From NCBI GenBank assembly GCA_964106915.2, contig OZ066928.1: a stretch of DNA of 64,000 nt. One strand, 5' to 3'. The translations under genes and the position numbers were made by a program. The notes under the pieces were generated by a model that worked only from the letters and a program-made list of their open reading frames with translations, did not search any database and was not told the DNA's origin. Source of the stretch: Podarcis gaigeae (lineage: Eukaryota). Of the stretch, positions 1 through 47,900 are shown one piece after another (positions within the stretch are counted from its first letter, which is position 1; each line of letters starts with the position of its first letter).

Positions 1-290
1 ACGGGGGAGGAGGGGACTACTACTAATACCCACTTCCTCCAAAAAAATAAAAGAAGAAGAAAACCCGGGGGGGGGGATTGTTACGCCTTTTATATTAATC
101 AGTAATGGGACCACGGGGTTGGACCTTTCCATTCTAATTTTCCATCAGTGTTATCTTTCATGTGGGCATCTGGGGGTGGGGGGAAATGAGCAACAGGGAC
201 CTTTCAAAAATATGTGGTTCCACACTCAGGGGCTTTTGAACACACTTCAGTGTCTTTCTGCCAAAAGATGTTAAGCCCTCACTTTTGTTT

Positions 291-635
291 AGGTTAAAGG
301 TAAAGGTAAGGGGACCCCTGACCATTAGGTCCAGTCATGACCAACTCTGGGGTTGCAGCGCTCATCTCGCTTTACTGGCTGACGGAGCCGGCGTACAGCT
401 TCCGGGTCATGTGGCCAGCATGACTAAGCCACTTCTGGCGAACCAGAGCAGCGCACGGAAACGCCGGTTACCTTCCCCCCGGAGCAGTACCTATTTATCT
501 ACTTGCATTTTGACGTGCTTTCAAACTGCTAGGTTGGCAGGAGCAGGGACCGAGCAACGGGAGCTCATATTCGAACCGCCGACCTTCTGATCGGCAAGTC
601 CTAGGCTCTGTGGTTTAACCCACAGCACCACCCAC
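291..635 (-). mobile_element. Sauria SINE (Squam1-like)
   Basis: (ACCTTT)n tail and a body matching five other copies in the window. Confidence 0.88.
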
Positions 636-1213
636 ATAGCTGCTTTTCTACCACCCTAATCAAAATGGCAAGGTGTCTGTGAGTCTTTATCAAAAGCAGC
701 AAAAACTGTACACAAAAGTTTAAGCAGATTCTGCAGGAGAGACTGCTCTGCTGCCTTTATAAAACATACCCTAGCATATGGAAATGATCTAGCAAGATGC
801 AGATTAACGCCCTCTTCCATTAACTATGGCTTCAGTGATGGGGGAGGCCCTTTACAGAGTATTTTGTCAAATAACTATTGAAGTGCTTCTACTGACCCTC
901 TTTTAAAAGGGGTTGGGGCAAGCAGTGGGGGGCGGGGATTTGCAAAGGGGAATTTTGGCCAAGCTGTGAGGGGATAGATGAGGAGGTGGGAGAGTTGTAA
1001 AGGAAGGGAGGGCAAAGACTGAGGATCCATTAGCAGGGTCAAAACACTAGACATCACTTCTACAGGGTCAAGGACATGCAGGTCCCTGAACCCGCTGCAG
1101 TTTGCACTAGGCACATGGTGCTTCTTGCAGCTTACTTCAAAGATCGCTCCTCATTCTCCACCCCCCACCCTGCACATGAAATATTAATGATGTCATCTGC
1201 TTCCAAATTTCAG

Positions 1214-12679
<11,466 letters not shown>

Positions 12680-15352: not shown

Positions 15353-18262
<2,910 letters not shown>

Positions 18263-19132: not shown

Positions 19133-19484
19133 AGGGGAGCGCCGGAAAATTTTCTCTTTGCCATTTTTGTCGTTGGGATTTAAGCAGTTTTAAAGACTAA
19201 GGAAGCTGCTCCTGATCTGGCTGCAGTGGGTTTGGTGGAGGGAAACTGTTTTTCTCCATTGTTGTGCTAGACTGTGTGACTGACCTTGGCATTCTTTAGC
19301 TATAAGTTCAGAAAGAGAAAAGCTCAGACGTGGCTCTAAAGCAGCAACACAATTTGAGGAGTCGGTAATGTCAGCGTTAAATGATATTAAAGAAGGATTA
19401 GATCGTAACACAGCATCCGTTAATAAGTTGGAAAAAAGGATTGAACATTTAAGTACCGACTTGAAAGATGTGAAAGATAAGATA
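19133..19484 (+). mobile_element. Probable L1 5'UTR plus ORF1 coiled-coil N-terminal fragment
   Basis: Frame from 19302 reads ...FEESVMSALNDIKEGLDRNTASVNKLEKRIEHLSTDLKDVKDKI (heptad pattern); no splice context. Confidence 0.45.
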
Positions 19485-19495
19485 CCCACACATAC

Positions 19496-20331
19496 GCAGG
19501 TTAAGTACTTAATTGGTCCCGGAAGTCCGTTCTTAACCTGAAGCGGACTTTCCCATTGAAAGTAATGGAAAGTGGATTGATCCATTCCAGACGATGAAAA
19601 ATACCCCTAAGACAGCAATTTAACACGCATTTTACTGTCTAACGAGACCATTGATCCATAAAATGAAGGCAGTAATCAATGTACTGTACTATAAAATAAA
19701 TAAGACAGTATTTTAGATGAAAAAAAATTAACTTTTTTTTTAACCTTACGTGCACTGATGATAAATCAGTTTGGATGGGGGGCTTTTATCCATTTCTGAA
19801 GTCACACAATCAACCAGTAGCTGAACTGGGTTCTACACAGTCACAAAAACAAGTCACAAAAGTGAAGTCACAAATCAGTCCCATAAAATGAAGAACAAGT
19901 CACAGTCAAAAAACCGAAAAAGCCACACAAACCAAAACGCGAAAAGGAAACAGACGATGAAAAGTGACCCCTAAAACAGCAATTTTACATGAATTTTACT
20001 ATCTAATGAGGCCATTGATCCATAAAATGAAGTACAAAATGAAAATGTGATTTTTTTTTCTTACCTGCGCTGATGATAGTCATTGTTTGGATGGGGGCTC
20101 AGGGTCCTCTTCCACAATCACAATTGGCTTGGCTCCCGGGATTTGTGGAGGCCTCAGAGAGCTCCCGTGGCTGGAGTCCAGTCGCGGAGCCGCTGCAGAC
20201 CCCATGGATATCAAGGCTTGGCTCCAGGCAGTGGCGAGGCCTCCAAGAGCTCGGACAACTTACTTCTGGGTTACAATAGTCGTAACCCAAAAAAACGTAA
20301 GTTGAAGCGTTTGTAACCCGAGGCACCACTG
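19496..20331. mobile_element. Non-autonomous Tc1/mariner (Tigger-like) element with an internal direct repeat
   Basis: Right end TAACCCGAGGCACCACTG|TA resembles the other MITEs; about 19587-19780 is repeated at about 19951-20100. Confidence 0.6.
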
Positions 20332-22850: not shown

Positions 22851-23385
22851 TTTAAAACGATTGCTGCTTTTACTTAAATCTACTGTTTTGATGGATTTAT
22901 TTTGTGAGTATGACTATGTTGGATATCACCTCGAGGCTTGTAGGCAGCCTGTTTGTGTGACTGCCTTTATGGGTCCTGTGATCCTCCTCACAGTGTGAAG
23001 GAATTAAAACATATCTGAGCCAATTCTGTTGTGCAGCAGCAACATCAAAGATTGTAGTGAGCCACCAGAAACAATGTACTGGGTAGGAAAACTGATTTAA
23101 AAACAAATGGCTCCAAATGATTCAGGTTTACAAGCATAGATGAAGGGCCAGAGTGTGATTTGGAAATTCACTCAGTTTTTCACCAAGAGAACGGCTTGCT
23201 TGAAAAGCCACCATGGGTGAAGGCTGAAAATGGCTAAAAGGTTGAATTGAACTGAATTGGTAACATTCAGCTAGCAAGAAGTCAAAATAAGTTTTGTTTT
23301 TTTAAAAGAAAAAGTTTAGGGTTGTTGTTTTTTAAAAATGATATGAACTCTGCAACACTTAATGGCAGTACAAAGAAAAGTAACA

Positions 23386-23391
23386 TTTATT
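23386..23391 (-). terminator. Candidate polyadenylation signal of the NIPA2-like gene
   Basis: TTTATT on the plus strand about 1.25 kb past the stop, with U-rich sequence downstream on the minus strand. Confidence 0.5.
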
Positions 23392-24631
23392 TGAAATAAA
23401 TTAACTGTCAACCTTAATACATCATCAACATTAAGTGATCATCAACACAGCCCCTGTGGCACTGGGCTTCCCTGACAACCAGTGCCCTCTTGTTCTCCTC
23501 TCCCCCCACTGAAATGAGAAATAAGCATTCTATCGTAGCCAACAGAATATGTACTTGTGTGTGTCTTATTCTCTGGTTTGCAAATGTACCCAAGAGACGT
23601 AGAAGGTTGGCAACCCCTGATAATACTTTAAAGAGAAGTTAATTTTTAAGTCACTTAAAATGCACTGTCCTTACATTCTGAAAGTGGTAGAGCACTGTTA
23701 TTAAGATCAGGCATGTAAACAGAGTAGCAGCTGCATTCTCATAAGAGACTTGCATACTGAGTTAAAACAGTTACGTTTGACAGTACTTCTGTGCATTCTG
23801 ATTCTGAAGTACACCAATGTAGAGCTCATTCAAGAGCTGAACTCATTGCTTATATCCTTGGTTTATCAGTGGGGCACTTTACATGATAGAGCCAAGCTTC
23901 TCCATAACCCAAGTGGTCTGCTGTCCATGCCAGCTTTCCTTGTGTTCTCATGTGTCTTCCCTTAATCTGTGTTCTTTAAAATGACCCAGAGGAAGAAAAC
24001 ACAGGGAGAAACCCTCCTCTCTCTTGCACACTCTTGTTTGTCCACATACTAGTCCTCTTGCTCATACACATATTTTTCTACTTCTCCCATTCCCCGAGAT
24101 TTGAGTTACCTTCAGCAGATTACATGAGAAAGAGGAATTCTGCTGTGTATTCCTGCCTCTGACTAGAAGGCTGAAGTATTTGCTTCTGCTTACTCTGCAA
24201 CACCCCCTGAGCAATTCACACCTCCTTACCAATTCCACATCACCCATTACTTTTGAAACTTGTTTTTTGTGTTGGGGCTGGTCCAAAACCCCTCAGGTGC
24301 ACATATTTTTGTCCCTGGTTTTCTTTCTTGTCCTCCACATCACTTCTGGATGCAGGGGAGGGAATGCAGGAGACAACAAGTTCAGCTCTAGGGCTGCCAC
24401 TTGCTGAGCTCTAGCTTGATCTGATTGGGTCTCTAATTTGGTTCAAGTATGTTACCAGTGAAAGGACTCGCACATAAACGCATTTCAAATAGTTCAGTGT
24501 TGGTCATTAGAATCTGATTCAACTTTTCTAGTGGAAAACAGCAGCAGTCTTAAGAAGCTCTTTGGAACATGGAAAATGGATTGGGATATATCTTTTTTTA
24601 AGCCGAAAGGCTATGTATAATGTTCTAGCTT

Positions 24632-25269
24632 TCATAAACCTTGGCCATATTGCTCCTCTGCTTTCTCTGTCCCTTCTTTGTGGGTGTCCTCAGAGTCCAA
24701 AAGGGGCTGGTGAAGACAGGACTGATGCTTGTCCCCCTTTCCCCAAGAAGCAGCTCGCACATTTGTTTGGTTATCCTTCAGGAAAAGAGGCAGCAGGTCT
24801 GCAGTGAAGGGGATGTCTCTGAAAGAATGCAGTAGGAAGATGCCAAGGACAATGGTGAGGAAGCCACTGATGGTGCCAATGATGTGCATCAGAACCAGAT
24901 GCTGCCACTCCTTGAACAGAATGGCAGAGCAAGTCATAACTGATGTGGTGAAGAGGACGTAATAGATGGGGGTCACTACAGATGTGTTGAAGATATCCAA
25001 GGCCTTGTTTAGGTAGTTGATCTGGATGGTGATGGAGATCACAAGGCAAATAAAAAGCAAATAGCTCAACGGTTCCTTCCAGACAGGCTTCCCAGCAAAC
25101 AGTTCTTTCAGGGCAATACCCAAGCCTTTTGCAGATGAGACAGAGAGTGAACCAATGGCAGAGCAGATCAAAACATACACTAAGACGTTGCTATGTCCAT
25201 AGCGAGGCCCAGCCACAAAGATGAGAAGAGCTGAACTCACCAGCATGCACACAGCAAACACTATAAATC
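24632..25269 (-). CDS. NIPA2-like last exon
   Basis: Encodes FIVFAVCM...[10 protein letters not shown]...QYGQGL*. Confidence 0.94.
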
Positions 25270-26930
25270 CTGTGGAGGAGGAGAGAGGAGAAATTGTTAA
25301 GGACAATATGAATCTTTTAGGTGTAGCTTACTTCTGCAGGATGTAGACAGTTTTGTTCAGATCAATGAGTGCACAAGCTAGATTCAATTAGTAGAATCTG
25401 GTGAGTAAAATACATAGAGGAAAAAGTATAAGCAGCAGAGCTTAGACAGTGGCTCAAAGGATAAGACACATAGCCCCCAGCTTATAATTTTTTTTGCACT
25501 GGGTTTGACTAGAACTAAGACCTTCCTCCTTCAGTTGTTTGTAAAGTTTTTCAGTGCACAGTGTGCTTTAGAATTCTTATGTCACTGTTATGGTTCAAAG
25601 CCAACTAAATGCCATTGGTGGGGGAATAAAGAATAAAATAGGTCCTATAAAAATTATTGACTCACAGGTTACTGATTATCAACATGAGTTTTCATTCAAT
25701 GAAATTAAGGAAAGCACTCAATTTCTGTCAAGTCCCCCTCACCCAAAATGGTATTCTGTTGGCGTACATACAATAGGTAAATGAAGAGGGGCAGTTAATA
25801 CCTGGATCCTTTAGTTTCTCCGCCATTGAATCCAGGCTGGAGACCTCTTCCTCCTGTGGGGCATGGATGACCATCACAGTGGAGCCTAAAATGCTAAGGA
25901 TACAGCCGATCTTCCCATGGATGTTCAGGTGCTCATTCAGGAAGTAGGAGGCTAAAACTGCACTATAGGAAGATACAACTGTGTTGAGAAAGGACCTGAG
26001 ACTGGTATCTTTATTTCCAGAAAAGGGCTTAGGGATTGGGAAATATCTGATCATGTTGTACTTACCTGACTAAAACACTTAGCGCTCCTAGAGGAGTGAC
26101 CAGTGTTGCAGGGGCAAAAGCATATGCAGCAAAGTTGGCAAGTTCTCCAATTCCCACTGCAAAAGAAGCAGTTTGCCATTGGCAAAAAAAAAAAAAAAAG
26201 GTTAACAAAGAGCAAATTCCATCTTCCTTTCTTGAGAAAATCAGGTGGCCAGCAAGAGAAGTCTTCTTAATTAAACATTATCCCCTCCACTTCCTATCAG
26301 TAATCTACAAATGACTAGGTTATTAGGCAGGCTAGTAATGATTTTAAATCATAGTAATAATGATGATGATGATGATGATGTACCCCATCGATCTGTAGAT
26401 GCCCCAGCCACTCTGGTGGTTTAATTTGCAAGGCTGCTTTATTATAAAGCTCCTTATACCAAGGAACTCATTGGGAGCTATTGGAGGTCATGTAAGAAGG
26501 CAAAGGGGATAATTCAAATTGTTGAAATGTAGGTGAAGATGATAAAATTTGGCATGGAAGTACTTACTAGTTAGCAGCCCTGCCCACCACATCCATTCCT
26601 TCAGATATGCATGACCCCCTAGACCTGTGAAGAGAGAAAAGAAACGAAAGGTGAAGTTTAAATGAAAACAGAAGCTAGCCTGGAAAACCTTTTCAAACTC
26701 TTAAGAAGCATGGACAGCCTGGTTTCTGGGATTTTTCCCATCCACAACAGATGTCATGGTAACTCTGTGAGCTCCTATTCAATAGCATTACCTGCTCTGA
26801 CAGCACCTCTGCTACTTAGCTTGAGAAGTCCCTTCTTCTTTAGGATAAAACTTCCTCCAATGAACAGGCTAGAGCTGAGAGCCAGGCCCAGTCCGATGTA
26901 GAAGTCGTAACGTCCCATTGAGTCCTCCAT
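24632..26930 (-). CDS. Magnesium transporter NIPA2-like, 361 aa; complement(join(24632-25269,25802-25962,26066-26156,26568-26624,26792-26930))
   Basis: [36 protein letters not shown]...[45 protein letters not shown]...[23 protein letters not shown]. Coding exons of 139/57/91/161/638 nt join in frame with GT-AG sites. Confidence 0.93.
25802..25962 (-). CDS. NIPA2-like exon
   Basis: Encodes [40 protein letters not shown]...LKDPG. Confidence 0.94.
26066..26156 (-). CDS. NIPA2-like exon
   Basis: Encodes [30 protein letters not shown]. Confidence 0.94.
26568..26624 (-). CDS. NIPA2-like exon
   Basis: Encodes [19 protein letters not shown]. Confidence 0.93.
26792..26930 (-). CDS. NIPA2-like first coding exon (acceptor at 27021)
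   Basis: gaaATGG start; encodes ...[17 protein letters not shown]; donor gtaatg. Confidence 0.85.
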
Positions 26931-27414
26931 TTCAATCACCTCAAGTTTTGAGAGAGAAAGATCAGAGTGTAAATGTCTGTTCCAGAAGAACAGCCATGTT
27001 GAATCTGCAATAGCAGGAAGCCTAAAATACAGTAATGCAACACTGGCAGGTTATGTCCTATGAAAAGTTCACTAAATAAGTATTCTGTCATACAAGCAAC
27101 TCATGTTCTACCTACATGCTTCCAATGGACACAATGTCCTTTAAGTAGAAGTGATTTTTCTGTGAAGTGGCCCAATGTTCACTAATAGGGTAAGCATAAC
27201 TAGCCTCCCTTTGCTACTTTTGACAGAAGGAAAAAGGGATTTTTTTCTCTCCAGGCCTCAAATACTCTTGGGGTACGCTGGTATAATCATAACCTTATGG
27301 GGTGGGGGGAGAAAGAAGATGGTGCCTGAAGCAAGTCTCCTATGAGCACCAGCAGAGTGAGTAGGAGCTTTTAAAAACACGGGGGGAAAGACACACTCCC
27401 AGAAAACAAGCTTA

Positions 27415-27640
27415 CAGTGGTACCTCGGGTTAAGTACTTAATTCGTTCTGGAGGTCTGTACTTAATCTGAAACTGTTCTTAACCTGAAGCACCACTTTAG
27501 CTAATGGGGCATCCTGCTGCCGCCGCGCCGCCAGAGCACGATTTCTGTTCTCATCCTGAAGCAAAGTTCTTAACCTGAAGCACTATTTCTGTGTTAGCGG
27601 AGTCTGTAACCTGAAGCATATGTAACCCGAGGTACCACTG
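27415..27640. mobile_element. Tc1/mariner (Tigger-like) MITE
   Basis: TA|CAGTGGTACCTCGGGTTA...TAACCCGAGGTACCACTG|TA. Confidence 0.88.
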
Positions 27641-28153
27641 TATATCCCAGCCAGCTAAGGACTCCAGGAGTCACCAGACAGCATTTTAAACATCCTCCCT
27701 TCCTTTGAGGCTCTTCTAAAGCCCCTCTGAAATCCTGCTGAAGCTATCCAAAACTCCTTGAGGTTATCTAAAACTATTTTGAGGCTAATTACCACGTTCC
27801 GAGTTTCTTTCAAACAAAGCCCTCAAATATACGGACGGGACAATGTAACCCAAATCTAGTCCAGGGGTGGTACTCACAAGACAGAGTTATAAGGAACTGG
27901 GAATTTCTCTTACACAAGCTGCAGAAATGCCCCCCAAGGAAAAAACAGGCCAAAATCTTATAGTATTTCAAACCAAAAGCAGACGATACAAGAAACATGG
28001 AGAGCTTGCACTCTCACAAATTGTCTGTCGACCGTATCTGGCATGGGAAGGATATGGAACCTTATAGGGACTATTTACCTCTTTTGTACTACAGGTGATG
28101 TGGGAACTACTTGCTATTGATCTTCCATAAGTCTTTTGAATGGCAAGTGAATA

Positions 28154-28398
28154 CAGTCATAACTCAGGTTGAAGTAGCTTCAGGTTAAGTATTTTCGGGT
28201 TGCACTCCGCAGCGACCCAGAAGTAACGGAGCACGTTACTTCCGGGTTCGGCCACTCGCAAATGTGCAGATGCTCAAAATGACGTCATGCGCATGCGCGG
28301 AAGCGGCAAAACGCGACCCCGCAGTTGCGTGTTATGTTCTACTCAGGATGCGAACGGGGCTCCGGAATGGATCCCACTGGCATCCAGAGGTACCACTG
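28154..28398. mobile_element. Tc1/mariner-like MITE
   Basis: TA|CAGT...GAGGTACCACTG|TA; related inverted copy at about 34448-34686. Confidence 0.7.
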
Positions 28399-28689
28399 TA
28401 CCTGAAAAAGGGCCTATATTTATCCCCCTCTCCCTTCGAGGTGATGTTGCAATACTTAGGTGTCTGTGCTTGAGACCAAGACTCAGCTGACTTTTGGGCG
28501 TATGTAAGCTAGCAGAATTCTGGGTGTTGGCTGTGACTCTCTGGAGATCTGGAGTTGCGTCAAACGCATATTAAAAAATTTGAGTTGCACAATTAAAAGT
28601 TGGTTTGGCACCCACTTAAAACAAAAAACCCCAAGCCTGGGACTTTTGGGATATAAATTCACTGGAAACATAGGAGGGGTGCGGCGGAA

Positions 28690-28760
28690 ATAACTAGACA
28701 TTAAACAACATCTCCACAAACCAACCAGGATGAATGTTCAATAAACAGGTTGCCTGCGTA
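28690..28760. repeat. Unclassified dispersed repeat (related copies near 10505, 48220 and 63835)
   Basis: Shared core CAGGATGAATGTTCAATAAACAGGTTGCCTG. Confidence 0.55.
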
Positions 28761-29201
28761 TTTGCAATTAAACACAAATAATACGAAATGCCAGTAAGTC
28801 TCCATATACACGTATACTCTTAGCTGTTTCGTAGGCTGCCTTGAAAGCTCCGGAGTAAATAGGCGGCAAATTTTACTTTAGATACACGCGCGCCCCTGCC
28901 AACCACAAACCACCAAGGTAACATAAAACATTAAAGGGGCTTACTTTGGGCGGAAAAGCAGACACCCCCTTCTGTCTCCCCAGCCAAGTAACACCCGTCC
29001 CTAATATATTTTAGGGGGGCGGAAATTACAGGTAAAGTAAGATTAAAAGGGACCAAGGCCACTCTGGATTTATTAATCCGGATTTTTGAAAGGAAGCTTT
29101 CCGCGGTTCCCCTGAGAGCGAGGGGCCCCCCCTGGGCCTGAGGCGAGCGGGGAGGTCGAGGCCTGTCTAAGGGCGGCGGGTGGGGTGGGGCGCGCCGGTA
29201 C

Positions 29202-29373
29202 CTGTCGCTGCCGTCGCTCTCTTCCCTGTCAGGAGCAGCTGCCGGCAGGCCTCCCGCGGCGTCCCTTCCTCTCTCCGCCTCCTCCTCCGCCCCGTAGCCG
29301 CCTGTTCCGCTTCCGTAGCTTCCGGGGCGGAGCAGGGCTGGCCACCTTTGGCACACTGGGCTGCCGGCTGCCG
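29202..29373. promoter_or_regulatory. Bidirectional CpG-island promoter with the non-coding first exons of NIPA2-like (-) and TAF7 (+)
   Basis: Minus-strand donor CAG|GTACCG at 29202 and plus-strand donor CCG|GTAAGT at 29373; three tandem TTCCG ETS cores (29304-29327) and GC boxes lie between them. Confidence 0.75.
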
Positions 29374-30270
29374 GTAAGTGACTGGGGAGGTGGGGGTGGG
29401 CGAGGCGGCCCCCGGGGGGACAGGCCTCATCTGAGCACTGCTGCTCCCAAGCCCAGCTCACCGAGGCCTCCGCCGGCCCCAGATCCCTCCCTAGACCCTT
29501 CCTTTCATTTTTCGGGACTTTCCCACTTTCTCTCCGCGCTATCTCATCCCACCCCCAAAGGGGGGGAAAAACCACCTTCAGGGCTCCCCATACCCTCGCA
29601 ACATCACCTCCGATGAAATAGGAGCGGCCCCCTATCCCATAATGATGATATGGGATATTCTGGGCTCAGATCCAGAAACCAGGATGGGGGTGGGGTGGGC
29701 GAGGCGCCCCCCGGGAGGATAGTCAGAGGGCTGCCCTTTGAAAATAGGGACACACTGAGAGTCTGGGAGCCTGCACCCTAAACAGCACCCCAAGACTCGT
29801 TCCTTACTCTTCTCCAGGCCCACTGCTATCCCCTGTCTGCTTCAACGCCCCCCATAACCCTAATGAGCACCTTCAAGAGCATATGATGGAAAGAGATATC
29901 CCAGCACTAAAGCAGCCCCCACAACCCAGGGCCCCCCCTTTCCTTTCTTGCAGCTCGGAATTCTTCCTTCCCCCACTTTGCAGTGGCCCCGAGCCCCAGG
30001 CAGCCTCCTGCCAAGGAGGTGTAGGAAAGAACCACCCCCCCAAGAGTTGCTCTTTTTCTTCAAACCCACAGTTATTCTCTGCCGCACCACCTTAGTTTCA
30101 TCGATGCCCCCAACCCTAAATGGCACCCCCAAGAAAGCATTGGAAAGAGATTCCCCAACCCTGCAACAGTTCTCCTTCCTTTCTATCTCTTCCCCAACTC
30201 AGAACTCTTCCTTGATTATCCACACCTGTTGCTTCCACATTTGAGAGCTCACCCCCCCCCCCAGCAGAAC

Positions 30271-33846: not shown

Positions 33847-33912
33847 ATGAGCAAGAACAAAGATGATGCTCCCCATGAATTGGAGAGCCAGTTTATACTG
33901 AGACTGCCTCCG
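33847..33912 (+). CDS. TAF7: TAF7 coding exon 1
   Basis: Encodes [22 protein letters not shown]. Confidence 0.94.
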
Positions 33913-36900
33913 GTAAGAGACCCTTTGCAATAAATAGCCTCAAAGTGCTCTGTGCTTGCTTCCTGATTCTATTGCTGGAGGCATGAATATGGGTTGGTAC
34001 AGTGGGACCTTTCTGTACACCCATGTTCAGCCCACGTCTTCGGCGCCTGCATGGGCTGGGTGTCGGGAGCACCTTCTCTGACTTTCCGATCACAGGAACG
34101 TAGGAACATCCAACACAGCATTCCTGAGGAATAGGTCCTGGTGCAGTGGACTCACATTTGCTCACATGAGCACCTGAAACGCAGCAGAGTAACAGAAGCA
34201 AAGCTGTGGAGGTTTTGTTGCATACCTAATTTATTTCTTCTAATTAAACAAACAAAAGAACATAACAAACATGTACGAGAGAAACAGCTCTCTCATACTG
34301 CCATCTTGTTTCTAGACAGGTCAAAGAAAAAGACACATAGTGCTAGGGATGGAAGTCTAGAAGAGTAGCTTCCTCCCCCTCCTTTAGACAGAAAGTAAAA
34401 CAAACATGATCTGGTGATCCTTGCAAAGGGAAGGATGAAAATGCTGACAGTACTTACGGACCCGATCCATTCCAGGGTGCCGTTCGCACCCTGAAAAGTC
34501 CGCTAGAGTGCCGCTTCTGTGCCTGCATGTGACACAATAGAGCGCTCCTGCGCATGCGTGAAGTGCACAGATTGCTCCTGCACATGCGTGAAGCGGCGAA
34601 CCCGGAAGTAAACACGTCCTGGTTTGCCGCATTCGTAACCTGAAAAAACGCAACGTGAAGCAAAAGCAAATTGAGGTATGACTCTATTGTAAACTCTGCC
34701 TTTTCAGGAACATGCTTCTACTGTGCGGAGGGCAGTTCAGTCTGGAAGTGTCAACTTGAAGGACAGGCTTACCATAGAATTGCATGGTAAGAGGACCAGG
34801 TCAATGAGTTCTTACTTCTTGGGAGGTGTATCCAGTGCTAGTCCTTCTCAGAGTAGACCCACTGAAATGAATGGACATGGCTAACTTTGGCCTATTAATT
34901 TCAGTGAGTCTAGTCTGAGTAAAACTTAATCAGCTAGAACACTTGACTTTTGTTGTTACACATTTATTACCTTAAGCTATTCATCAGGTCCTGCAGTTTG
35001 GAACGCCCAGTCATTAGGAAGCTATTGGGTGGGGCTACATGAAATTGCTGGGGAGGGAGAGGGATTGTTCTGCCACTGATGCCTCTAAAAACAGTGGAAA
35101 AGTTGGATTAGTTTTTTGTAAATGGGAGTAGTACAACTGGTATTTTCTCCTATCTATACTTCAGGAAGATAATATATCTAATCCACGTTCCCACCTGTAA
35201 TGTTGGTTTCCACATGCATGAATATCACTTGATTTGATTGGCTGTTCAGTAGGTGACTTATGTGTTTGAGGTTACATGAGCATTATTTTAATGATAACCC
35301 ATTCACATTTGCAAGTTATCACTGAATGTTGCAGTAATCAAAGTTCTGCACAGTATGCCAGTATTATTTTTTTTGTTGTAAAGGAAAACATGATTGAGAT
35401 GTATAGGTGTCTTCCAACTTATGTGTGATCAACTCATGCGTGACTGGGAAATAATTAAATAATTCAATTCAAACCCAGAAATGGCAGGAGGGAGCTGGCT
35501 CACGAGGAGACCCTCTATGGAGCCTGAAGACGGTGCCAGTAAGGGCAGAGGAAGCCCCGAAGAGACCGGAAGCACAGTGGGGCTTTGTTCTGGCTGCTTA
35601 GCCTCCTTGTCTAACATCCGACATGTGGGGTAGCTCAGGAGCAGCAGCCTCTTTCCCATGCAGCCTCCAGCTGACCCCAGAATGTCAATTCTAGTTGTGC
35701 ATATTTTTTGATACAGTATTTTTGGTATGAGAGGGAGTTTAGAGGGTGCGCCACGCTTTATACGATTTCATTTATGTGTGCAGGGGGCTGGAAGCAACCC
35801 CCTTGTTAGTGTGGGGATGCCTGTATAAAATGATGCGGACACAGAGAAGTTTTTCTCACTCTCTCATAGAATTTGGCATCCCATGGAGCCAAATGTTGAG
35901 AGGACAGACAAAAGGAACAACTTCTTCACATAATTTGTAGTTAATAGTTTATAGTTACTGTGTAATTTGCTACCCCAAGATGTAGTGATGGCCAGCAGCT
36001 AGGATGATTTTAAAAGAGAATTGGACAAATTCATGGCTACTGGTGGCTGCTAGTTCTGATGGCTACATTGCCTCCAATATCAGAAGCAGTATGCTTCTGA
36101 ATACCAGTTGAGGAGGAACACAAGCAGGAGATTATTGCTCTTATGCCCTCAGGGTGACCATTGAGGCAAATAGGAAACTGAGCTAGATATGCCTTTGGTC
36201 TGATCCAGCAGGGTTCTTATAAAGTAGCACACATGCATACATGTTAAACATGCCAGAACTGTGTTTTGAATTGCTAATAAGATACCACGAATCTTCAAGT
36301 GCAAGCCTACTTTCCTCTCTGCAGCAGATGGCCGCCATGGGATTGTGCGAGTAGACCGGGCCCCATTAGCCGCCAAGCTGGTGGACTTGCCTTGTATCAC
36401 AGAGAGTTTAAAAACAATCGATAAGAAGACTTTCTATAAGACAGCAGATATTTGCCAAGTAAGTATTGTCTCATGGTCTGGATATCAGACTTTCTCTGTC
36501 CTCCCTGTGTCTTGTACACAGTCTCAATTTTGCCCCACTCTCATTTCCATGCTAGAAGCTCTTTATGGATGTTCCACGATGTAAAACATCTACACCCAAT
36601 TTTGAGTGTGAGAAATTCCTTACAGTTGGCTGTTCCCCCAAAGCAAGAAAATTGAACGGTCTTAGAGAGGCTTGTGCCTCATACTGTTGGTGACAAAATG
36701 GTTGGTTGTCTCCTCTTCTCCCCAGTGCTTTCATATCCAACCAGTGCTGGCTTCAGATTTTGGCCAGCCTTCAGGCACAATGATCTCGATGGGGCCCTTA
36801 CCTCCATGAGTTCAAGAATTCAAATACCAAAATAATAGGAAGGTACAAATATTAAACAAAACCTATACCATACTGAAACTTCAGATGGTTACATCCATAG

Positions 36901-39900
36901 CCATAAATAAGAATAATGTGCACAAATGTGTGATAATAAAGTTTAATATTACCAGCATAATAGTAATATGAATGTTACTAGAGCCTTCAGGTACCCAGCA
37001 GTGTGAATCCCTGACACTGACCTTGCATATAATGGTTGCCTCTCTTTGTGGGGATTTAGATGCTTGTGTGCACTGTGGATGGTGAACTATACCCTACTCA
37101 GGAAGAGCCAGCGCCAGCGACTACTGATGCTAAAACTCCTTCAAGTACCGATGTCAAAGCCAATAAGAAGAAAGACAAAGACAGAGAGAAGAAGTTCCTC
37201 TGGAATCATGGCAGTGAGTAGAATATTTCATTTCACCTTCCTTACTCGACTTTGTGCCCGCTTCTCACTCTACCTCCAGAAAAGTCCCTTCCATTGATCC
37301 TCAAGGAGTTGGAGTATTGTTTGCCAATACAATACGACTAAGATTCACCCTCACCCTCTTGGTTTCTTCGAAATCGGGGAGCTGCCATTGGCTGTTCTCG
37401 TCTTTGCTGCCTAGCTCACTGCTCAAGGAGAGATCCATTTTCCCTTAGTAAGTCACAATGCCCTTCAGCTCTCCCTTTTGCCCCATGTAATTAATTTGCT
37501 GTGATGTTCCAGTTACTCTCCCACTGAAGAATGTGAGGAAGAGGCGGTTCAGGAAGACAGCCAAGAAGAAGGTGAGTTGCATCTCCTTGTTTGGTGTTAG
37601 CTTTGAATCGTTGCTCACACATGCTGTGGCAGAAAGCCAACCACAGTGCAAACTGAAGCAGGCTAAAAGTTCCACCAGATCAGATAAATGTTCACCAGTC
37701 TGGCATGATTTCATTGCTACATTGACAAGAAAGACAACAACAGAGGGTCACCAGCACAGTTGTGTCTCCATCTAGAACTTTCAATGAATGTATATTTGAT
37801 AGCTTGCTATAGTTGATTAAACCCATAAGAAGGACCTGAGCTCAATAGCCTGTTTTCATTTATGATTCCTAGCACCTGGTATTCAGAATCAGGTATGTGT
37901 CTGATACTGGAGGTAATATATAGCCTTCATGAGTAGTAGCCACAGTTTCAAAAGATGCACATTGCTTCAAACATTCTTTCTTATAGGAAAAATCCCACTA
38001 TAGATCATTCTGGTTTCTTAAAAAAACAAACAAAGAGAAATCACATGTCCTTGACTGACAAAATATAGTAATCCAGTCAGCAGGAACAGATTGACCAGTC
38101 TTGTGTGGTCTGTTTTGTTGTTGCTGTTTTTCAAGTGGAATTCCCATGATTCACTGATTTATATTTTTCAGTGTTTAAAATAAGAGAGCATAGAATATTT
38201 TAAGGCAGCTTCCCCCAACCCAGTGCCCTCCAGATGTTTTGAACTTGTACTCCCATCCTTGCCAGCCCAGGTTACCAATGGTCAGGGATGATGGGAGTTG
38301 CAAGAGAGAGTGGGGGCCCTCACTGTGATGGGGAAGGCTATGTGCTAAAGTGTGCCAAATGATCCTGAATATGCAGATCTAAAAACCGTAAGAAGTTCCT
38401 TGCTGGAACAGACCAAGGTCTGACTTATCCAGCATTCTTTGTGAGAATCTGAGCGATCAGGAAGCACTAAGTGATGTGCCATAAATTGTCCTCCCTGGTC
38501 TGCTGGTAGACCACAGTCTCCTTTCCGCCCATCTCCATTTGAAGGCCTTTGGAGAAGAAGTTGTGCCTTGCTTGGAATAATTGCAGGAATCTTGCAGGAT
38601 GGCTCAGGAATGCCTTTGAAAATGTAGGTAGAAAGGTTGCAGGTGTGTCTGTGGCATCCAGTAGGAATGACACTTTGGGCTGAGGCACAACCAACTTGTG
38701 GGTGCATAATATTGTTTCTCTTTCTTTCTTCCTCTCTGGCCCAGTACATTGAGTCTCCAGATGTGGAAAAGGAAGTGAAGCGCCTTCTGAGCACAGATGC
38801 TGAAGCTGTTGGAGTCCGTATCCTTTCTTTCTAGTGGTTGCTTTTTATGTAGACCAGTTTGCCATCTTAGCCTGAATACACAAGTGCTGAATGTGTGTTT
38901 GGGGGCAGAGGTATCCCACAATCTTGACCCCAGCAAGCATTGCATGCTTGTCCTCGCATGCATTGTGTGTCTCCTCTCATCCCCCACACTTGTGACTTTC
39001 TGCATGTTGCTCTGGTTAGGCCAGCTGGTGGTGGCTGTTGTTCTTTTTTTGCATTTGTATGGATGCAAGTAGAATTCTGTGTATGGCAAAGACCCAGAGT
39101 GGAAGAGTCTGCTTGCATCTGACTGAATGTGAGCAGACATATCCTGGCGGCATCTTTCTTGGGATTTATGGCACTTACAGAGGCTAGTCCATTAGGGCAC
39201 CTTGGGCACTGCCTTGCTAACTGTCCTCAGTCTGCCCTCAGCTGGTCACATCTGCTTGCCTTGCTATTTTCCTCCAGTCTGAAAAGTGGAATTGCTTGTC
39301 AGCTTCCTCTTTCTCAGTCTCAGTATTGCCCTTGTAAAACTCAGCAAGGAGGAGGGTGGGAACAGAACCAGAGTTACTGGCTCCACCTATCCTTGTCTCT
39401 GGTTGTACCTACTGTTCGTCTTCCTACCTTCTGCCCCACTAGTTCCAGTGGGTACCAGCCACCACTGCATTGTACCATACCTGTTCAGGAAAGCAGTGTG
39501 TGCAAAAACGAACAGGTGTAGACATCAATTAATGTGCTTCAGTGGAAAGCTGGAGAGTGTTTTCTAATCATCTGAAGAATATTGCTGTAGCATCAATTTT
39601 CCAGCGCAGATTCCATTTTTCTAGAGGATGCCTCCCTATTGAGCTGGTTTTTCCTTGACTCTTCTGTATCTGTTCTGAGGCTGGGAGGTCATTGCCGAAG
39701 ATGAAACAAAAGACCCTGACAACCATGGTTCACTCACAAGCTTGGATATTTCTTCTCCTGGACTGTCTGGACACAAACCAAGCCATGGTACTGCAGGTAT
39801 TGTCAAACTTCAGTAGCTCCCTAACTTGAAGAGCTGTAGATCATCTTATCTTGTATGCCAGAGTTTGAAGGTTCAGTCCCTGATACCTTAATAGGTATTT

Positions 39901-42611
39901 TGTGGTTTTATATCTTGGTTTTATTCTGTGAACTGCCCTGAGACCCCTGGGTGTAGGTAAAGGTAAAGGACCCCTGACAGTTAAATCCAGTTGTGAACGA
40001 CTCTGGGGTTGCGGCGCTCATCTCGCTTTACTGGCCGAGGGATCCAGCGTTTGTCCACAGACAGTTTTTCTGGGTCATGTGGCCAGCATGACTAAGCTAG
40101 GTTAGCAGGAGCTGGGACTGAGAAACGAGAGCTCACCCCATTGCGGGGATTCAAACCGCTGACCGTCCGATCGGCAAGCCCTAGGCTCAGTGGTTTAGAC
40201 CACAGCACCACCCGTGTCAGTATATAAATTCAATAAATAATAATAACAACCTCCAGTTAAAATTATTGGGAACCAAGTGATGAGAAAGACCCCTTTCTGC
40301 TTTAGTCCTAGAGAGACATTGCCTTTCAAAGTGGACAATCCTGAGCTAAATGAGCAAAGAATCTGACCTAGTATAAGGTAGTTGCCTGTATTCATATTCC
40401 AACTTGCTGATGCTTATATTTCTAGATGCTGTCATGCAGATGGCTAAGTACAAAATATATAGATAGTAGCTTTTGGGTACAGTTTTCTGACCCAGTGGGC
40501 TAGAGAAGAATTTAACCTGGCCTGGCAAGGAAGCTGGAGGTCTTTAAATTAAAACAGCGTCAAGAAGGCTATTTGTTACCATGCTAACCAAAAGGTTAGC
40601 AACACTTTTCTAGGATAATTTTTACTGTGCATATTGTAAACTATACTCTTCGCTTTTTCCTTGTTGCTTCAAAGCGATAGAACATGCTGAGCTCCGGGAG
40701 ATGTTTAAGGATGTCAGCAGTACCAGCAGTGATGAGGAGGAGAGGGATGACCTGAACATCATGGACACAGAAGAAGACTTAGCGAGGAGACTGCAGTGCA
40801 AGCTGAATGAATCAGATGGGCAACAGCAAGAAAATGAAGGGTCCAACCAGATAGGTATGATGCCTGAGGCCCCCAGGGAGGGAGGCTGTACAGTAGATGG
40901 GGTGGTCAGCTTGAATCAGGACCTTACTCGGCTTGTGCCAGAATGTGCTGAGGATTGTTTGACTTGTTTCTGGAAGTGCTAAGTTTTCTGCTCTGTCTTC
41001 CAGCCATGGGAATCCAGAAGCAGATTGACAACCTGAAAGACAAGTTGCAGGAGACCCAGGACCGCAGAAAGCGCCAAGAGGATCTCATCATGAAAGTAGA
41101 GAACCTAGCCCTCAAGGTGAATTCAGCATCACCACCCCTTCTCTAGAGAAGGTCTAATAGAAGCCTGCTCAGCTCAGCTGAGTTTGGCAGGTGTTTATAG
41201 CTAATAGGCATCTCGTTCAGCAGAGACAATAGTCCCTACGGTGGTAGAGTATATGATTTGCAGAAAGTCCCAGGCTCGTTCCCTGAATATCCAGTTAAAA
41301 AATAAATTAGGTTGCAGTTGGTGAGTCTCTGCCTGAGACTCTGGAGAACCACTGCCAGTTGGGGTAGACCAGAGATGGGCAATCTTTTCAGACCACGTGT
41401 CACATTCCCAGATGGGCAGCCTTCTGGGGGGTGAGTAGCACAATAAATGTCAGATTTACTTTTGTGCAGTATTCGTCCATCACTGTCTTCCATGCAAGCA
41501 ACTAGGAGGCAGTAGCAGAGTTCAAGGACGCATTCCAGCCAGACAGTAGCATGCAAGGGAGGTTGTAAAGTAGGGCTTCTTAGGGGTGTGGCTTGGGGAG
41601 ATTCCCGTGGGCCAAATAGAGCAGCCTGGAGGGTGACATTTGACCCCCTGGCATGATATTTACGCACCCCTGCAGTAGACAGTACTGAACTAGAATGTCA
41701 GCATTCTTCAGCCTTGAGTCTCCAGGTATTGTCTGACTACAGTTCCCATAATCTTAACTTAAGTAATTGTCGGGGATGATAGACGTTGTAGTCCATCAAC
41801 ATGGAGATCCATGGCTAAAGGAACACAAGATGGTCAACAAACTGACCTCATAGAAAGCAGATTCGTCTTGGGGAGCAGGTAGGTAACCCTAGTATATCAG
41901 GGCTCACTTCCTAGACAATAATTTGAGAAAGAACCTGAATAGGTAACCAAGTTTTAAGGAGAGTAATACAGCCCTGTGCTGTTTTCATCTTAACCCGTGG
42001 CTTGAGAAAATCCACACCCTTGGGTTATGCAGCAGCACAACCTGCGATTTTGCCACAGTTGCCTTTTTTGTGGTTGGTCTGTGTGGGAGGTCAGTGCAGG
42101 CTGAAGACCCAGCTGTGCGCATGAAACTGCCCTTTGCAAAAGAAAACCTATATGTGTTGTGTTCTTTTGTTAGAAAAGTACAGGAGCAACAGCCACATTT
42201 CCTGCCCATCTTGTTTTCCAGACCCGCCTCCAAGCTGTGCTGGATGAATTCAAACAGCAGGAAGAGCTAGAGAAGCAGCAGGTAAGGTGGTCTGTAAGGC
42301 TGACAAATGGGGCAGTACAGTTAATCAAGCTGCATTGTGAATCCACAAGCAATGCTAAAGTCTTTCCCCCATGTGATAATGAACCATATTTTCCCAACTG
42401 TGAACTTGAAAAGCTTTTTGTCATTTGAAAAAAAATTATGCTGCTGCTCTCTGGTAAGATACAGTGTGAAATGCTTGCCAGTAGCTGAACTGTCCACAAG
42501 TGCTTTGCAGTGTGGCTTAAGAGCTCTTAACCATATTTTGTCTCTCTACATTCTGTTTCTCTTCAGCTGGCCTCTCTTCAAGAGCAGCTAGAAGCCCTTA
42601 TGGAAAAGTGA
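33847..42611 (+). CDS. TAF7: TFIID subunit 7, intron-containing TAF7 (positional ortholog of mammalian TAF7L), 357 aa; join(33847-33912,34708-34786,36325-36458,37060-37213,37513-37571,38745-38817,39680-39796,40681-40854,41004-41116,42222-42281,42567-42611)
   Basis: [22 protein letters not shown]...LVDLPC...[13 protein letters not shown]...[19 protein letters not shown]...[15 protein letters not shown]...KVENLALK...LEALMEK*; 1074 nt in frame. Confidence 0.95.
34448..34686. mobile_element. Tc1/mariner-like MITE related to 28154-28398
   Basis: Reverse-complement similarity to that copy, including GCGCATGCG motifs. Confidence 0.6.
34708..34786 (+). CDS. TAF7: TAF7 coding exon 2
   Basis: Encodes [26 protein letters not shown]. 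Confidence 0.94.
36325..36458 (+). CDS. TAF7: TAF7 coding exon 3
   Basis: Encodes [44 protein letters not shown]. Confidence 0.94.
37060..37213 (+). CDS. TAF7: TAF7 coding exon 4
   Basis: Encodes [12 protein letters not shown]...EKKFLWNHG. Confidence 0.93.
37513..37571 (+). CDS. TAF7: TAF7 coding exon 5
   Basis: Encodes [20 protein letters not shown]. Confidence 0.94.
38745..38817 (+). CDS. TAF7: TAF7 coding exon 6
   Basis: Encodes [24 protein letters not shown]; followed by a U12-type donor. Confidence 0.92.
38818..39679 (+). other. U12-type (minor spliceosome) GT-AG intron
   Basis: 5' splice site GTATCCTTT; branch site TTCCTTGAC at 39651-39659; AG at 39678-39679; reading frame preserved (V-R|W-E). 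Confidence 0.9.
39680..39796 (+). CDS. TAF7: TAF7 coding exon 7
   Basis: Encodes [39 protein letters not shown]. Confidence 0.92.
39955..40218 (-). mobile_element. Sauria SINE, internally deleted
   Basis: Tail AGGTAAAGGTAAAGG and body similarity to the other copies. Confidence 0.85.
40681..40854 (+). CDS. TAF7: TAF7 coding exon 8 (alternative acceptor at 40675)
   Basis: Encodes [21 protein letters not shown]...DTEEDL...NEGSNQI. Confidence 0.9.
41004..41116 (+). CDS. TAF7: TAF7 coding exon 9
   Basis: Encodes [37 protein letters not shown]. Confidence 0.94.
41370..41672. mobile_element. hAT-like MITE
   Basis: CAGAGATGGGCAA...GCACCCCTG termini with a degenerate 8-bp TSD ending GTAGAC. Confidence 0.55.
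42222..42281 (+). CDS. TAF7: TAF7 coding exon 10
   Basis: Encodes [20 protein letters not shown]. Confidence 0.92.
42567..42611 (+). CDS. TAF7: TAF7 last coding exon
   Basis: Encodes [14 protein letters not shown]. Confidence 0.92.
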   Translation: MASLQEQLEALMEK

Positions 42612-44912: not shown

Positions 44913-47900
44913 GTAAATGGCTGCAAGCATAGAAACCATTAAAAATGTGTAAATAGGATCATAGGAAGATGTCTTACACCATGCCAACCTGTCTCATCTA
45001 GCTCATGGTTGTTATATACTGAGTTGCAATGGCTCTCCCAAGGTTTTGGACAGGAGACTTTCAATCCCAGCTGGAGGTGCTGGGTACTTAAATAGGGACC
45101 TTTTGCATGCTAAGCATGCGCTCTGCCACTGAGCAAGAGCTCTTCAGCAGTTATTAGCAATTATGGCTAAATTGAACCTCCATGTTTGGAGGCAGTATAC
45201 CCCGAATTTGAGTGGCTGGGGTCGGCAGCATGGAAGTGCAATTGCTTTCATGTTCTGCTTATGGGTTTCCTGGATGCATGTTGCTGGCCACTGTTGGAAA
45301 TGGGTGCTGGACTAGGTAGGCCTTTGATCTGATTCAGCAGGTAGTTGATTCTTAGGTAATTAGGTAAAAAGATGGGCAGCAGAAAGGTTGACCTGGAACA
45401 CTCCTCTTTATTCCTCTGCCTTCTGTCTCTTCTGACTACTGGCTTTAGAAAGCTGTTTTTTGGTTACAGAAGTAAAGCACACAGTAATAAGGCAGTGAAT
45501 CCTTTTCAGTTGTATAATATGCCTAACGTCTATAGAGCTGTGGAGGCTAAGCGCTGTGTCAGGTGCTAGCCCTATTCAGAGTAGACCCATTGTAATTAAA
45601 TGACCTACTCTCAGTAGGACTAGCAGCCCTACATATTTAAGTTCCTGTCCTACTTTTCAGTTATGTGCTTTCGGAATTATGACGCTCATTTGCTATTGGT
45701 TAGCAGTTCAAAAGCACGTCAAAGTGCAAGTAGATAAATAGGTACCGCTCTGGTGGGAAGATAAACGGCGTTTCTGTGTGCTGCTCTGGTTTCACCAGTA
45801 GTGGCTTAGTCTATAATGATTTTATTGCATTAGCCATGTGGCCATAGCATAATATACATAGAAATAACAACATAAAATGGGGGTGGGGAGATAAAAGTGT
45901 ATGCCGTTCTGGGCGAATACTTTGAGAGAATGGGGATAACAAAGGTAACGGGAGATTTAAAACATCGAGTGACAGAGAATACAAAAAACAGGTTCGATTG
46001 TGCGGCATATCGACTACATCTGTGGTATTGAGGAAGGAGTTGGTGCCGCTTTCCTCTTCATCACACTAAGCAGGAAATTAGCTGTCATCTCGGTAATCCA
46101 ACAGTAAGAATCCTGCAGAAGAAGGGACACTATCCAAGGCTGGATTGGGAGATGAAGCTTGTTCATGAGAGGAGTTAGAAACCGAGATCTTTCATCTGTC
46201 CAGTTGGGGCAGAAGAGCATTACATGTTCCATAGTCTCCAGAGCCGTGTCATTGCAGGTGCATGTTCTATTTGCGATGGGAACTCTGGAGTAACGACCCG
46301 ACAGAACTGCTGTAGGAAAACAGTTGAGACGGGCACAGGTAAAGGCCCTTCGTTTAGCCTCCGAAGGAATTGTAAAGCAGTATAGAGGGATCCCTTCAGG
46401 GGGTGGAATAGCTAGGGCTAAGCCTGAACACGGCCCTCTTGCATGGGAAGCTGTGTTAGAGAAGTCAAGTTGCTCCAGCTTCTTTTTGATTAGAGGCTTA
46501 TACACTCTAAATTAAAAACAGTTTTGCGGTTCAAATTGAGAAGAGAGCGGAGTTTGAGATTAATTGTAGTTTTCCAAGGAGAATTATGAATATCTCTTAG
46601 GATCAGATTGGAGAAACTACCTCTAATTCGAGCATCCGATGGTAGTAGGTGGGAGCTGTAGGAAATGGCTCGACTCCATGCTCGTTTTACAATTGAGGGC
46701 TGGGCGAACTCAAGTCGTAAGGCTGCACCTGAGACACATCTTGGGACGCCGGAAAGAGACCTCAAAAACATATGAAGTGGGCGATCCAAGTTACCTGATA
46801 TTGCTGTAGTCCATACTTCGCAGCCATATAATAGTTTAGGGACAACTTTGGCATTAAACATTTGAATTGCTGCTGGAAGGTGTTTGCCGCCCTTCTGGTG
46901 ATAAAATCGTACAATGGCATTAGAGGTCGTGGTTGCAGCAAGAGAGGCAGATTGTAGATGGGTGGTCCAGGAGAGATTATAAGTAAATATTAAGCCTAGA
47001 TATTTAAAGGCTTTTACCTTTTCTAAGTAGTGGCTTAGTCATGCTGGCCACATGACCGAGAAGCTGTATGCCAGCTCCCTCAGCGAATAAAGCGAGATGA
47101 GCGCCGCAACCCCAGAGTCGTTTGCAACTGGACTTAACTGTCAGGGGTCCTTTACCTTTACCTTTAAAGGACAATAATTCCCACATAGGGAGAGGAAACA
47201 GAGCAGACTCCCATTCAGTGGAGGAAGGCAATAAATAATTGCTCCAGAACACTGTGGAAGGCAAAGCAAAGGTGGTTCTGAACTTCCAGGGGTTTAGATT
47301 TGAGCTGACTAGAGCCCTAACCATATTAACTTTAGTTTGCCTTTGATCCAGATCACATTCCACTTCCAGACGCTAAAAGACAACTTTGAGAGAACGGTGA
47401 TAGATGACAGCCGGGGCCCTGGCATCCCCATGGAGATTATTGTGGGGAAGATGTTCAAAATCGAGGTGTGGGAGACCCTTCTAACTTCCATGCGGATCGG
47501 CGAGGTGGCAGAGTTCTGGTGTGATGCTATTGTGAGTGTGTAATTGTGCCAGCATACCCTGAACACATGAAATTGTCAAGTTCATGCCTACCCTAATTAG
47601 CAGAAAGTTATTTGCAATTGACTATCAAGCACCTGGTACCCTTCAGATGCTGTTGAACTCCAACTCCCATCTTCCCATCTAGCATGGCCAGTGGCCAAGG
47701 AAAATGGGAGTTGTAGTCCGTCAACATCTGGAGAACACCACAGTAGCTATCCTAAAATATGCTCACAACTTCCCATCATTTGACCTAGCTATCCAGATTC
47801 ACTAAAATAGTTCCCCAGACTCCACCTTTTCAAAGTTTCTGGAACGTAGGAAGCTCCCTTATACCGTGCCAAATTATTGGTCCATCTGACCCAATACAGT

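What the first reader, a model, noticed from the sequence alone, without database searches (positions are those of the whole stretch)
24632..29202. NIPA2-like gene beside BTK may be a fourth ohnolog of the Tec-kinase/NIPA paralogon
Seen: an intact 361-aa NIPA2-like gene about 12 kb from BTK. Known (from memory): NIPAL1 neighbours TXK and TEC at 4p12, NIPAL4 lies near ITK and CYFIP2 at 5q33, and NIPA2 lies near CYFIP1 at 15q11; no NIPA gene lies between human TIMM8A and TAF7L. Inference: this is not NIPA2 itself but a whole-genome-duplication paralog lost in mammals, i.e. an uncharacterised Mg2+ transporter.
Basis: partly seen in the sequence, partly recalled or inferred. Interest (0 to 1): 0.72.

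Follow-up and report, generated by a model that had tools for sequence, protein, structure and literature searches.

The report
Fourth NIPA ohnologue, lost in placentals
This lizard gene next to BTK is an intact, spliced sister gene of the human transporter NIPA2, kept from sharks to marsupials, absent from human and mouse, likely born in the early vertebrate genome doublings and predicted to carry magnesium and nucleotides; it is unnamed but already appears in published supplementary trees.

Summary
The gene has five coding exons (361 aa), ends 11,953 bases from the BTK stop, and all five introns are spliced in RNA of related lizards. The genome holds a separate NIPA2 beside NIPA1-CYFIP1 (6 Mb from BMX), NIPAL4 beside ITK-CYFIP2 and NIPAL1 beside TEC. 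The protein falls in its own clade (100/99) running from sharks through fish (zgc:101583), amphibians and birds to platypus and marsupials; a squamate duplicate is rejected (AU p 6e-110). It pairs with NIPA2 as BTK pairs with BMX. Lagman et al. 2022 already show this unnamed BTK-linked clade in a supplementary tree with an opossum X copy and none in human or mouse, and call the NIPA expansion 2R-consistent. All ten substrate-cavity residues of human NIPA2, now reported to carry nucleotides as well as Mg2+, are kept; dimer-interface D278 is never Asp in the clade. New here: broken copies on contig C32, likely the W chromosome.

The parts
29202..29380 (-). Non-coding first exon (5' UTR) in CpG-rich promoter; upstream limit approximate
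   Evidence: Donor GT after 29202; joint to 26939 in runs X1, X23, X24; CpG o/e 0.67
26792..26939 (-). Exon 2: 9 nt UTR plus first 139 coding nt (ATG at 26930)
26568..26624 (-). Coding exon, 57 nt
   Evidence: same size in NIPA2, NIPAL1, NIPAL4 of this genome
26066..26156 (-). Coding exon, 91 nt (E70, N73, G89, S92)
25802..25962 (-). Coding exon, 161 nt (acidic patch E133-E135)
24632..25269 (-). Last coding exon, 638 nt with stop (S192, K197, Q232, Y252, Y253, F256)
23370..24631 (-). 3' UTR, AATAAA at 23391-23386
   Evidence: transcript contigs end at 23368 and 23372
1..12679 (+). BTK, 3' part (kinase exons, stop at 12679); paralogon marker
   Evidence: Best PDB hits BTK, E 2e-31; Pfam kinase exons; BTK motif 10 kb upstream of the window
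15356..18262 (+). TIMM8A (two exons), flanking gene
   Evidence: PF02953 on both exons; name from position and motif, recalled
33847..41000 (+). TAF7L, flanking gene (3' limit approximate)
   Evidence: PF04658, exons; name from position, recalled

Best explanation
The gene is the lizard orthologue of zebrafish zgc:101583 and chicken MGTNIPA2L, a seventh SLC57 (NIPA) gene that likely arose in the early vertebrate genome doublings as the sister of NIPA2, stayed beside BTK from fish to marsupials, was likely deleted on the placental-mammal stem, and is predicted to work like human NIPA2 as a dimeric passive carrier of nucleotides and Mg2+. Shown here: intact spliced gene; own clade spanning jawed vertebrates; four NIPA genes each on the contig of one Tec kinase; every cavity, hinge and gate residue kept. 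[quoted passage not shown] In lacertids it is Z-linked and its likely W copy is broken, so females would have one working copy.
For: Gene model and splicing. Four linked pairs in G000: BTK-this gene 12 kb (C33), TEC-NIPAL1 about 10 kb and in the same tail-to-tail orientation (C19), ITK-CYFIP-NIPAL4 about 100 kb (C2), BMX-CYFIP-NIPA2 about 6 Mb (C8). Trees: 36 of 36 chosen rows one clade, 99; 16 of 16, 100/99 with lamprey and invertebrate outgroups; NIPAL1+NIPAL4 99. Kinase exon identities pair BTK-BMX and TEC-ITK (sum 400 against 357 and 350 over three exons). AU rejects squamate duplicate (6e-110), X+NIPAL4 (0.0014) and mouse NIPA2 inside the clade (0.026). 28 of 30 functional sites named in PMC13500462 are identical. 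Published tables put the orthologue 1.7-11 kb from btk in zebrafish, chicken, stickleback, medaka, gar, Xenopus, reedfish and coelacanth, on opossum X, and list none for human or mouse.
Against: The sister relation to NIPA2 is only 82/82 in the rooted careful tree and NIPAL1+NIPAL4 only 62/47 there; in the 28-row tree the root falls between this clade and the rest (34) and X+NIPAL1 is not rejected (p 0.081). One lamprey row only, placed at 81/66. The BMX-NIPA2 link is loose (6 Mb). The eutherian blank is weak: one search showed 120 of 813 hits, lengths 116-370 only, and also showed no frog although Xenopus has the gene. No placental genome could be searched. No transport, location or tissue data; D277/D278 of the dimer interface differ.
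Confidence: 0.85

Rival explanations
1. Same origin, but the protein is a dedicated Mg2+ importer, as the family name and the first reader say, with no meaningful nucleotide transport.
For: NIPA2 is listed as very specific to Mg2+ among cations (PMC9333335 table); both Mg2+ sites are intact; nucleotide uptake rests on one paper using fluorescent analogues.
Against: The same residues bind ATP in structure 9Z7T and E70A, Q232A, F256A impair both cargos; 3 mM ATP cut Mg2+ uptake by about 70%; none of these residues differs here.
Confidence: 0.2
2. A single-gene or segmental duplicate of NIPA2 on the jawed-vertebrate stem that moved next to BTK, independent of whole-genome duplication.
For: Closest to NIPA2 (72% against 67% and 65% over 298 columns); no CYFIP gene on C33; rooted support moderate.
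Against: Landing 12 kb from one of only four Tec kinases found in the same orientation as TEC-NIPAL1 is very unlikely by chance in 1.5 Gb; kinase pairing matches NIPA pairing; PMC9803222 finds five neighbouring families, BMX and NIPA among them, consistent with 2R.
Confidence: 0.07
3. The gene is NIPA2 itself, relocated, or a recent squamate copy of it.
For: Many database rows are simply named NIPA2.
Against: Canonical NIPA2 sits between NIPA1 and CYFIP on C8; AU p 6e-110; coelacanth, gar, lungfish, axolotl, koala and echidna each have both genes.
Confidence: 0.01
4. The C32 copies are not W gametologues but a Z-to-W transposition, or a segmental duplicate on an autosome.
For: dS of 0.10 is low for sex chromosomes dated to 85 My or older (PMC6534595); pieces are scattered over 0.55 Mb and TIMM8A/TAF7L copies were not seen in the 210 kb of C32 fetched.
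Against: C32 also holds a decayed BTK fragment at 89-94% identity; the P. lilfordi counterpart lies on a 12,316,893-base contig, the size given for its W; single-copy parts have about half the depth of the doubled part in one DNA run.
Confidence: 0.25

Closest known systems
Unnamed 'LG7' NIPA clade of Lagman et al. 2022 (PMC9803222, Fig S7 and NIPA sheet): zgc:101583, ENSGALG00000004975, ENSACAG00000008274, ENSMODG00000011663, XB-GENE-5783434
   Same: Same gene: beside BTK, same clade (gar and coelacanth rows named Zgc:101583 fall in it), 361 aa in Anolis, absent from their human and mouse rows, read as 2R-consistent.
   Different: Used there only as a synteny marker for CNGA genes, not named or discussed; no lacertid, monotreme or W copy, no residue analysis.
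MGTNIPA2L (chicken E1BSZ9) and zebrafish Q5PRD2 in the SLC57 tree of PMC9333335
   Same: Listed next to NIPA2 with a 'LOST' leaf; I read that node as human plus rodents from the text layout, and I take these rows as this clade from name and place, without aligning them.
   Different: Seven species only, no marsupial, so the loss looks mammal-wide.
Human NIPA2 (SLC57A2), PDB 9Z6N/9Z7R/9Z7T
   Same: Aligns over residues 3-316 with one gap, E 7e-151 (with the 98.6% identical P0002); all ten cavity residues, hinges, acidic patch, K197 kept.
   Different: Paralogue, about 71% identical in the core; D277/D278 replaced by M/H; unrelated C-terminal tail; eight clade-diagnostic positions such as S161, S190, M261, D307.
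NIPAL1 (SLC57A3) and NIPAL4 (SLC57A6)
   Same: Same 57/91/161 exon pattern; each beside a Tec kinase.
   Different: 67% and 65% identical; longer N-termini; form the other pair of the quartet.

Membership tests
SLC57 / NIPA family | PF05653 domain | tested here: met
   E 1e-53, 183 bits against cut-off 26
SLC57 / NIPA family | Cavity residues F28, E70, N73, G89, S92, S192, Q232, Y252, Y253, F256 | tested here: met
   10 of 10 identical (numbering by mouse NIPA2, in register with the human chain)
SLC57 / NIPA family | Nine transmembrane helices | tested here: inconclusive
   Seven hydropathy peaks at the threshold used; gap-free alignment to the 9-helix structure up to residue 311; no fold was predicted
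SLC57 / NIPA family | Passive Mg2+ and nucleotide transport as a dimer | not testable with these tools
   Shown for human NIPA2 only (PMC13500462)
NIPA2 orthologues | Location beside NIPA1 and CYFIP1 | tested here: not met
   That locus is C8:35.6 Mb and holds another gene
NIPA2 orthologues | Falls within the NIPA2 clade | tested here: not met
   Separate clade 100/99; AU tests
2R ohnologue quartet | Four paralogues on four regions sharing other families | tested here: met
   Tec kinase on each of C33, C19, C2, C8; CYFIP on C2 and C8
2R ohnologue quartet | Duplication after invertebrates, before the shark/bony fish split | tested here: met
   Shark rows in both this clade and NIPA2; 4 invertebrate rows outside, 100/97
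2R ohnologue quartet | Two-by-two topology congruent with neighbours | tested here: inconclusive
   Unrooted split (X,NIPA2 | NIPAL1,NIPAL4) 99 and kinase pairing agrees; rooted support 82/82 and 62/47
BTK-linked LG7 clade (zgc:101583) | Adjacent to BTK and grouped with zgc:101583 rows | tested here: met
W gametologue (C32 copies) | Intron-bearing diverged copy on a contig with other decayed Z genes | tested here: met
   91-95% identity with introns; BTK fragment
W gametologue (C32 copies) | Female-specific | not testable with these tools
   Sex of runs not given; one of three DNA runs laid nothing, which proves no absence

The most novel reading that the evidence does not exclude
A seventh vertebrate SLC57 carrier with its own job: a nucleotide carrier whose extracellular dimer contact has changed (D278 is Asp in 47 of 47 NIPA2, NIPAL1 and NIPAL4 rows and in 0 of 36 rows of this clade), giving it other partners, location or cargo preference. 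Placentals alone dropped it, and it sits on sex chromosomes twice over (marsupial X, lacertid Z with a recently decaying W copy), so it would be a natural test of what this transport does and of its dosage needs.
Probability: 0.15. Interest if true: 0.5.

Novelty: already known. Interest (0 to 1): 0.2.

Why it matters
Modest. It completes the Tec-kinase/NIPA quartet, and it warns that many bird, fish, reptile and marsupial records labelled 'NIPA2' are this paralogue, which matters for zebrafish and chicken models of NIPA2 (15q11.2) disease, where a sister gene that human and mouse lack may buffer knockouts. The broken C32 copies are a dated marker of W decay in lacertids. The ohnologue reading itself is already implicit in a 2022 supplement.

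Tried and rejected
Loss in frogs: suggested by no frog row among 120 hits, rejected because the Xenopus gene is listed beside btk; crocodilians also unseen, left open. Cervus P0172, top hit, is NIPAL4 with a doubled last exon, not a placental orthologue; it was left out of the trees. NIPA1 as outgroup gave a long-branch root inside NIPAL4 and was replaced. The 34 unnamed rows were placed: 33 fall with fish or sauropsids of this clade, 1 with NIPA2, none with mammals. No listed holder was on record as RNA; the evidence is the raw-read lay. No structure or complex prediction was obtained, so the effect of the D278 change is open. Literature searches listed no paper about this gene; search 82 led to the two supplements that hold it. 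The supplement of the ohnologue database paper PMC13450315 has no NIPA entry; its online database was not seen and may list the quartet. Two look-ups of earlier scan findings returned nothing.
Full report
Observation. The region holds a minus-strand gene with coding exons of 139, 57, 91, 161 and 638 nt, all introns GT-AG, giving 361 aa without a stop. A non-coding first exon ends at 29202. Reads of two raw RNA runs of a related lizard skip all five introns and come from one strand; transcript contigs end near 23370, beside an AATAAA at 23391. These runs are from relatives, not from G000, and tissue is not given. The order is BTK(+), TIMM8A(+), this gene(-), TAF7L(+), then an AIP/AIPL-type gene; the BTK stop is 11,953 bases away. 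The protein is 356 of 361 identical to a Podarcis lilfordi 'NIPA2-like' record, so the window is from a lacertid lizard; gene content matches the lacertid Z, homologous to chicken 4p and human X (PMC6534595, passages).

Family in this genome. The window is G000:C33. PF05653 and protein searches find NIPA1 and NIPA2 on C8 (35.58-35.61 Mb), NIPAL4 on C2, NIPAL1 on C19, two distant members on C16 and C17 (taken as NIPAL2/3, not tested), this gene, and broken pieces on C32: seven genes against six in human (PMC13500462). CYFIP exons lie beside the C8 and C2 genes. A BTK kinase exon finds four loci: BTK here, BMX on C8 at 41.78 Mb, ITK on C2 and a fourth on C19 whose best solved relative is BTK at lower score and which carries a BTK motif, TEC by elimination. 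TEC and NIPAL1 face each other tail to tail as BTK and this gene do. NIPA2, NIPAL1 and NIPAL4 share the 57/91/161 exon sizes.

Phylogeny. Of the best 120 of 813 hits of the last exon, 118 score best with this clade's profile (the profile was built from some of them). Named rows include squamates, tuatara, turtle, birds, platypus, seven marsupial species, caecilians, salamanders, lungfish, coelacanth, gar, bowfin, teleosts and sharks; echidna and devil appear as cluster members. None is placental. In an 84-row tree the 36 chosen rows form one clade (99) joined to NIPA2 (99). In a 47-row careful tree with a lamprey and four invertebrates the clade has 100/99, NIPA2 82/82, both together 82/82, NIPAL1+NIPAL4 62/47. 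On 28 rows AU tests reject a squamate duplicate (p 6e-110), union with NIPAL4 (0.0014) and mouse NIPA2 inside the clade (0.026), but not union with NIPAL1 (0.081) or NIPA2 (0.43); NIPAL1+NIPAL4 has 99. Rows were picked by hand for taxon spread; NIPAL4 rows are sauropsid only, NIPAL1 rows tetrapod only, and a deer NIPAL4 with a doubled exon was dropped. Three kinase exons pair BTK with BMX and TEC with ITK, matching the NIPA pairs.

What is known. PMC9803222 (passages, section 9, text of supplementary Fig S7 and the NIPA and BTK rows of its table; the drawn tree was not seen) treats BMX and NIPA as neighbouring families of the CNGA paralogon, finds both consistent with 2R, and lists an unnamed LG7 group: zebrafish zgc:101583, medaka, stickleback, gar, reedfish, coelacanth, Xenopus, chicken 4, Anolis (361 aa) and opossum X, each beside btk where coordinates are given, with no such row for human or mouse. 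PMC9333335 (passages and the text of its supplementary SLC57 tree) lists chicken MGTNIPA2L and zebrafish Q5PRD2 next to NIPA2 with a LOST leaf. So the ohnologue is in print as a by-product, unnamed. The Xenopus row also shows that my search blank is weak evidence: it missed frogs. Eutherian-wide loss rests on human, mouse, rat and that blank.

Mechanism. PMC13500462 (abstract, sections 7, 8, 9, 11; supplements not seen) reports human NIPA2 as a nine-helix dimer that passively carries Mg2+ and nucleotides by alternating access. Of 30 residues named there for cavity, hinges, gate and dimer contact, 28 are identical in the window protein; cavity sites in the last exon are invariant in 36 of 36 clade rows. 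The two that differ are D277 and D278, which brace the extracellular dimer contact; D278 is Asp in all 47 NIPA2/NIPAL1/NIPAL4 rows and the lamprey, and N, S, G or H in all 36 clade rows. Transport like NIPA2 is therefore predicted, not shown; a changed dimer contact is a lead.

Broken copies on C32. Exon 1 lies at 2.676 Mb (95%), exons 2-5 with introns at 3.14 Mb (91-95%), and a second last exon at 2.594 Mb, 99.6% identical to the first and inverted. The last exon has two 1-nt deletions and a stop; dS 0.10, dN/dS 0.32 against the intact gene. A decayed BTK fragment lies at 2.30 Mb. P. lilfordi has a second record with the same diagnostic residues and an open last exon on a 12.3-Mb contig, the size reported for its W. 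One DNA run, possibly the assembly's own source and so not independent, matches the C32 letters across the breaks, with depth about 17 on the single part and 34 on the doubled part; a run of another organism lacks one of the deletions and has a different one; a third laid nothing; the RNA run shows the intact-type letters at most differing sites. C32 is likely the W.

Verdict. A real, intact, ancient NIPA2 sister gene, very likely the BTK-linked 2R ohnologue, lost in placentals rather than in mammals, already visible in published supplements, never characterised as far as ten searches showed. Interest low; the W decay and the D278 change are the small new points.

Noticed in passing
window 47313-56134 (+): AIP/AIPL1-type gene (PF23322 FKBP-type exon, TPR-like exons) with a long acidic last exon of about 590 aa; likely the AIPL1 paralogue recalled as aipl2 in fish, possibly another gene of this block that human lacks. 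PF23322 found only this locus and one on C1.
   Followed up: partly
G000:C32:2300135-2303338 (L028): Decayed BTK fragment, 89-94% identical to the BTK 5' region on C33; supports C32 as W.
   Followed up: partly
G000:C19:20.61-20.63 Mb (L018, L019): Only one Tec-family kinase exon was found beside NIPAL1; no TXK hit among the four loci, so TXK may be lost or diverged in this lizard.
   Followed up: no
window 6712-9108 (-): 798-aa LINE reverse-transcriptase frame inside a BTK intron (PF00078); further LINE remnants near 46000-47000.
   Followed up: no
window 19284-19538 (+): Coiled-coil open frame between TIMM8A and the NIPA gene with only a sub-threshold Pfam hit; perhaps a LINE ORF1 remnant.
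   Followed up: no
G000:C32:2586782-2594837 and 3140791-3152319: Two segments 98.6-99.6% identical in inverted orientation about 550 kb apart, an amplicon-like or palindromic arrangement on the likely W.
   Followed up: no
database records: Many records of this clade (duck, zebra finch, Pogona, coelacanth, gar, teleosts) are named plainly 'NIPA2', a mislabelling that can confuse orthology.
   Followed up: yes
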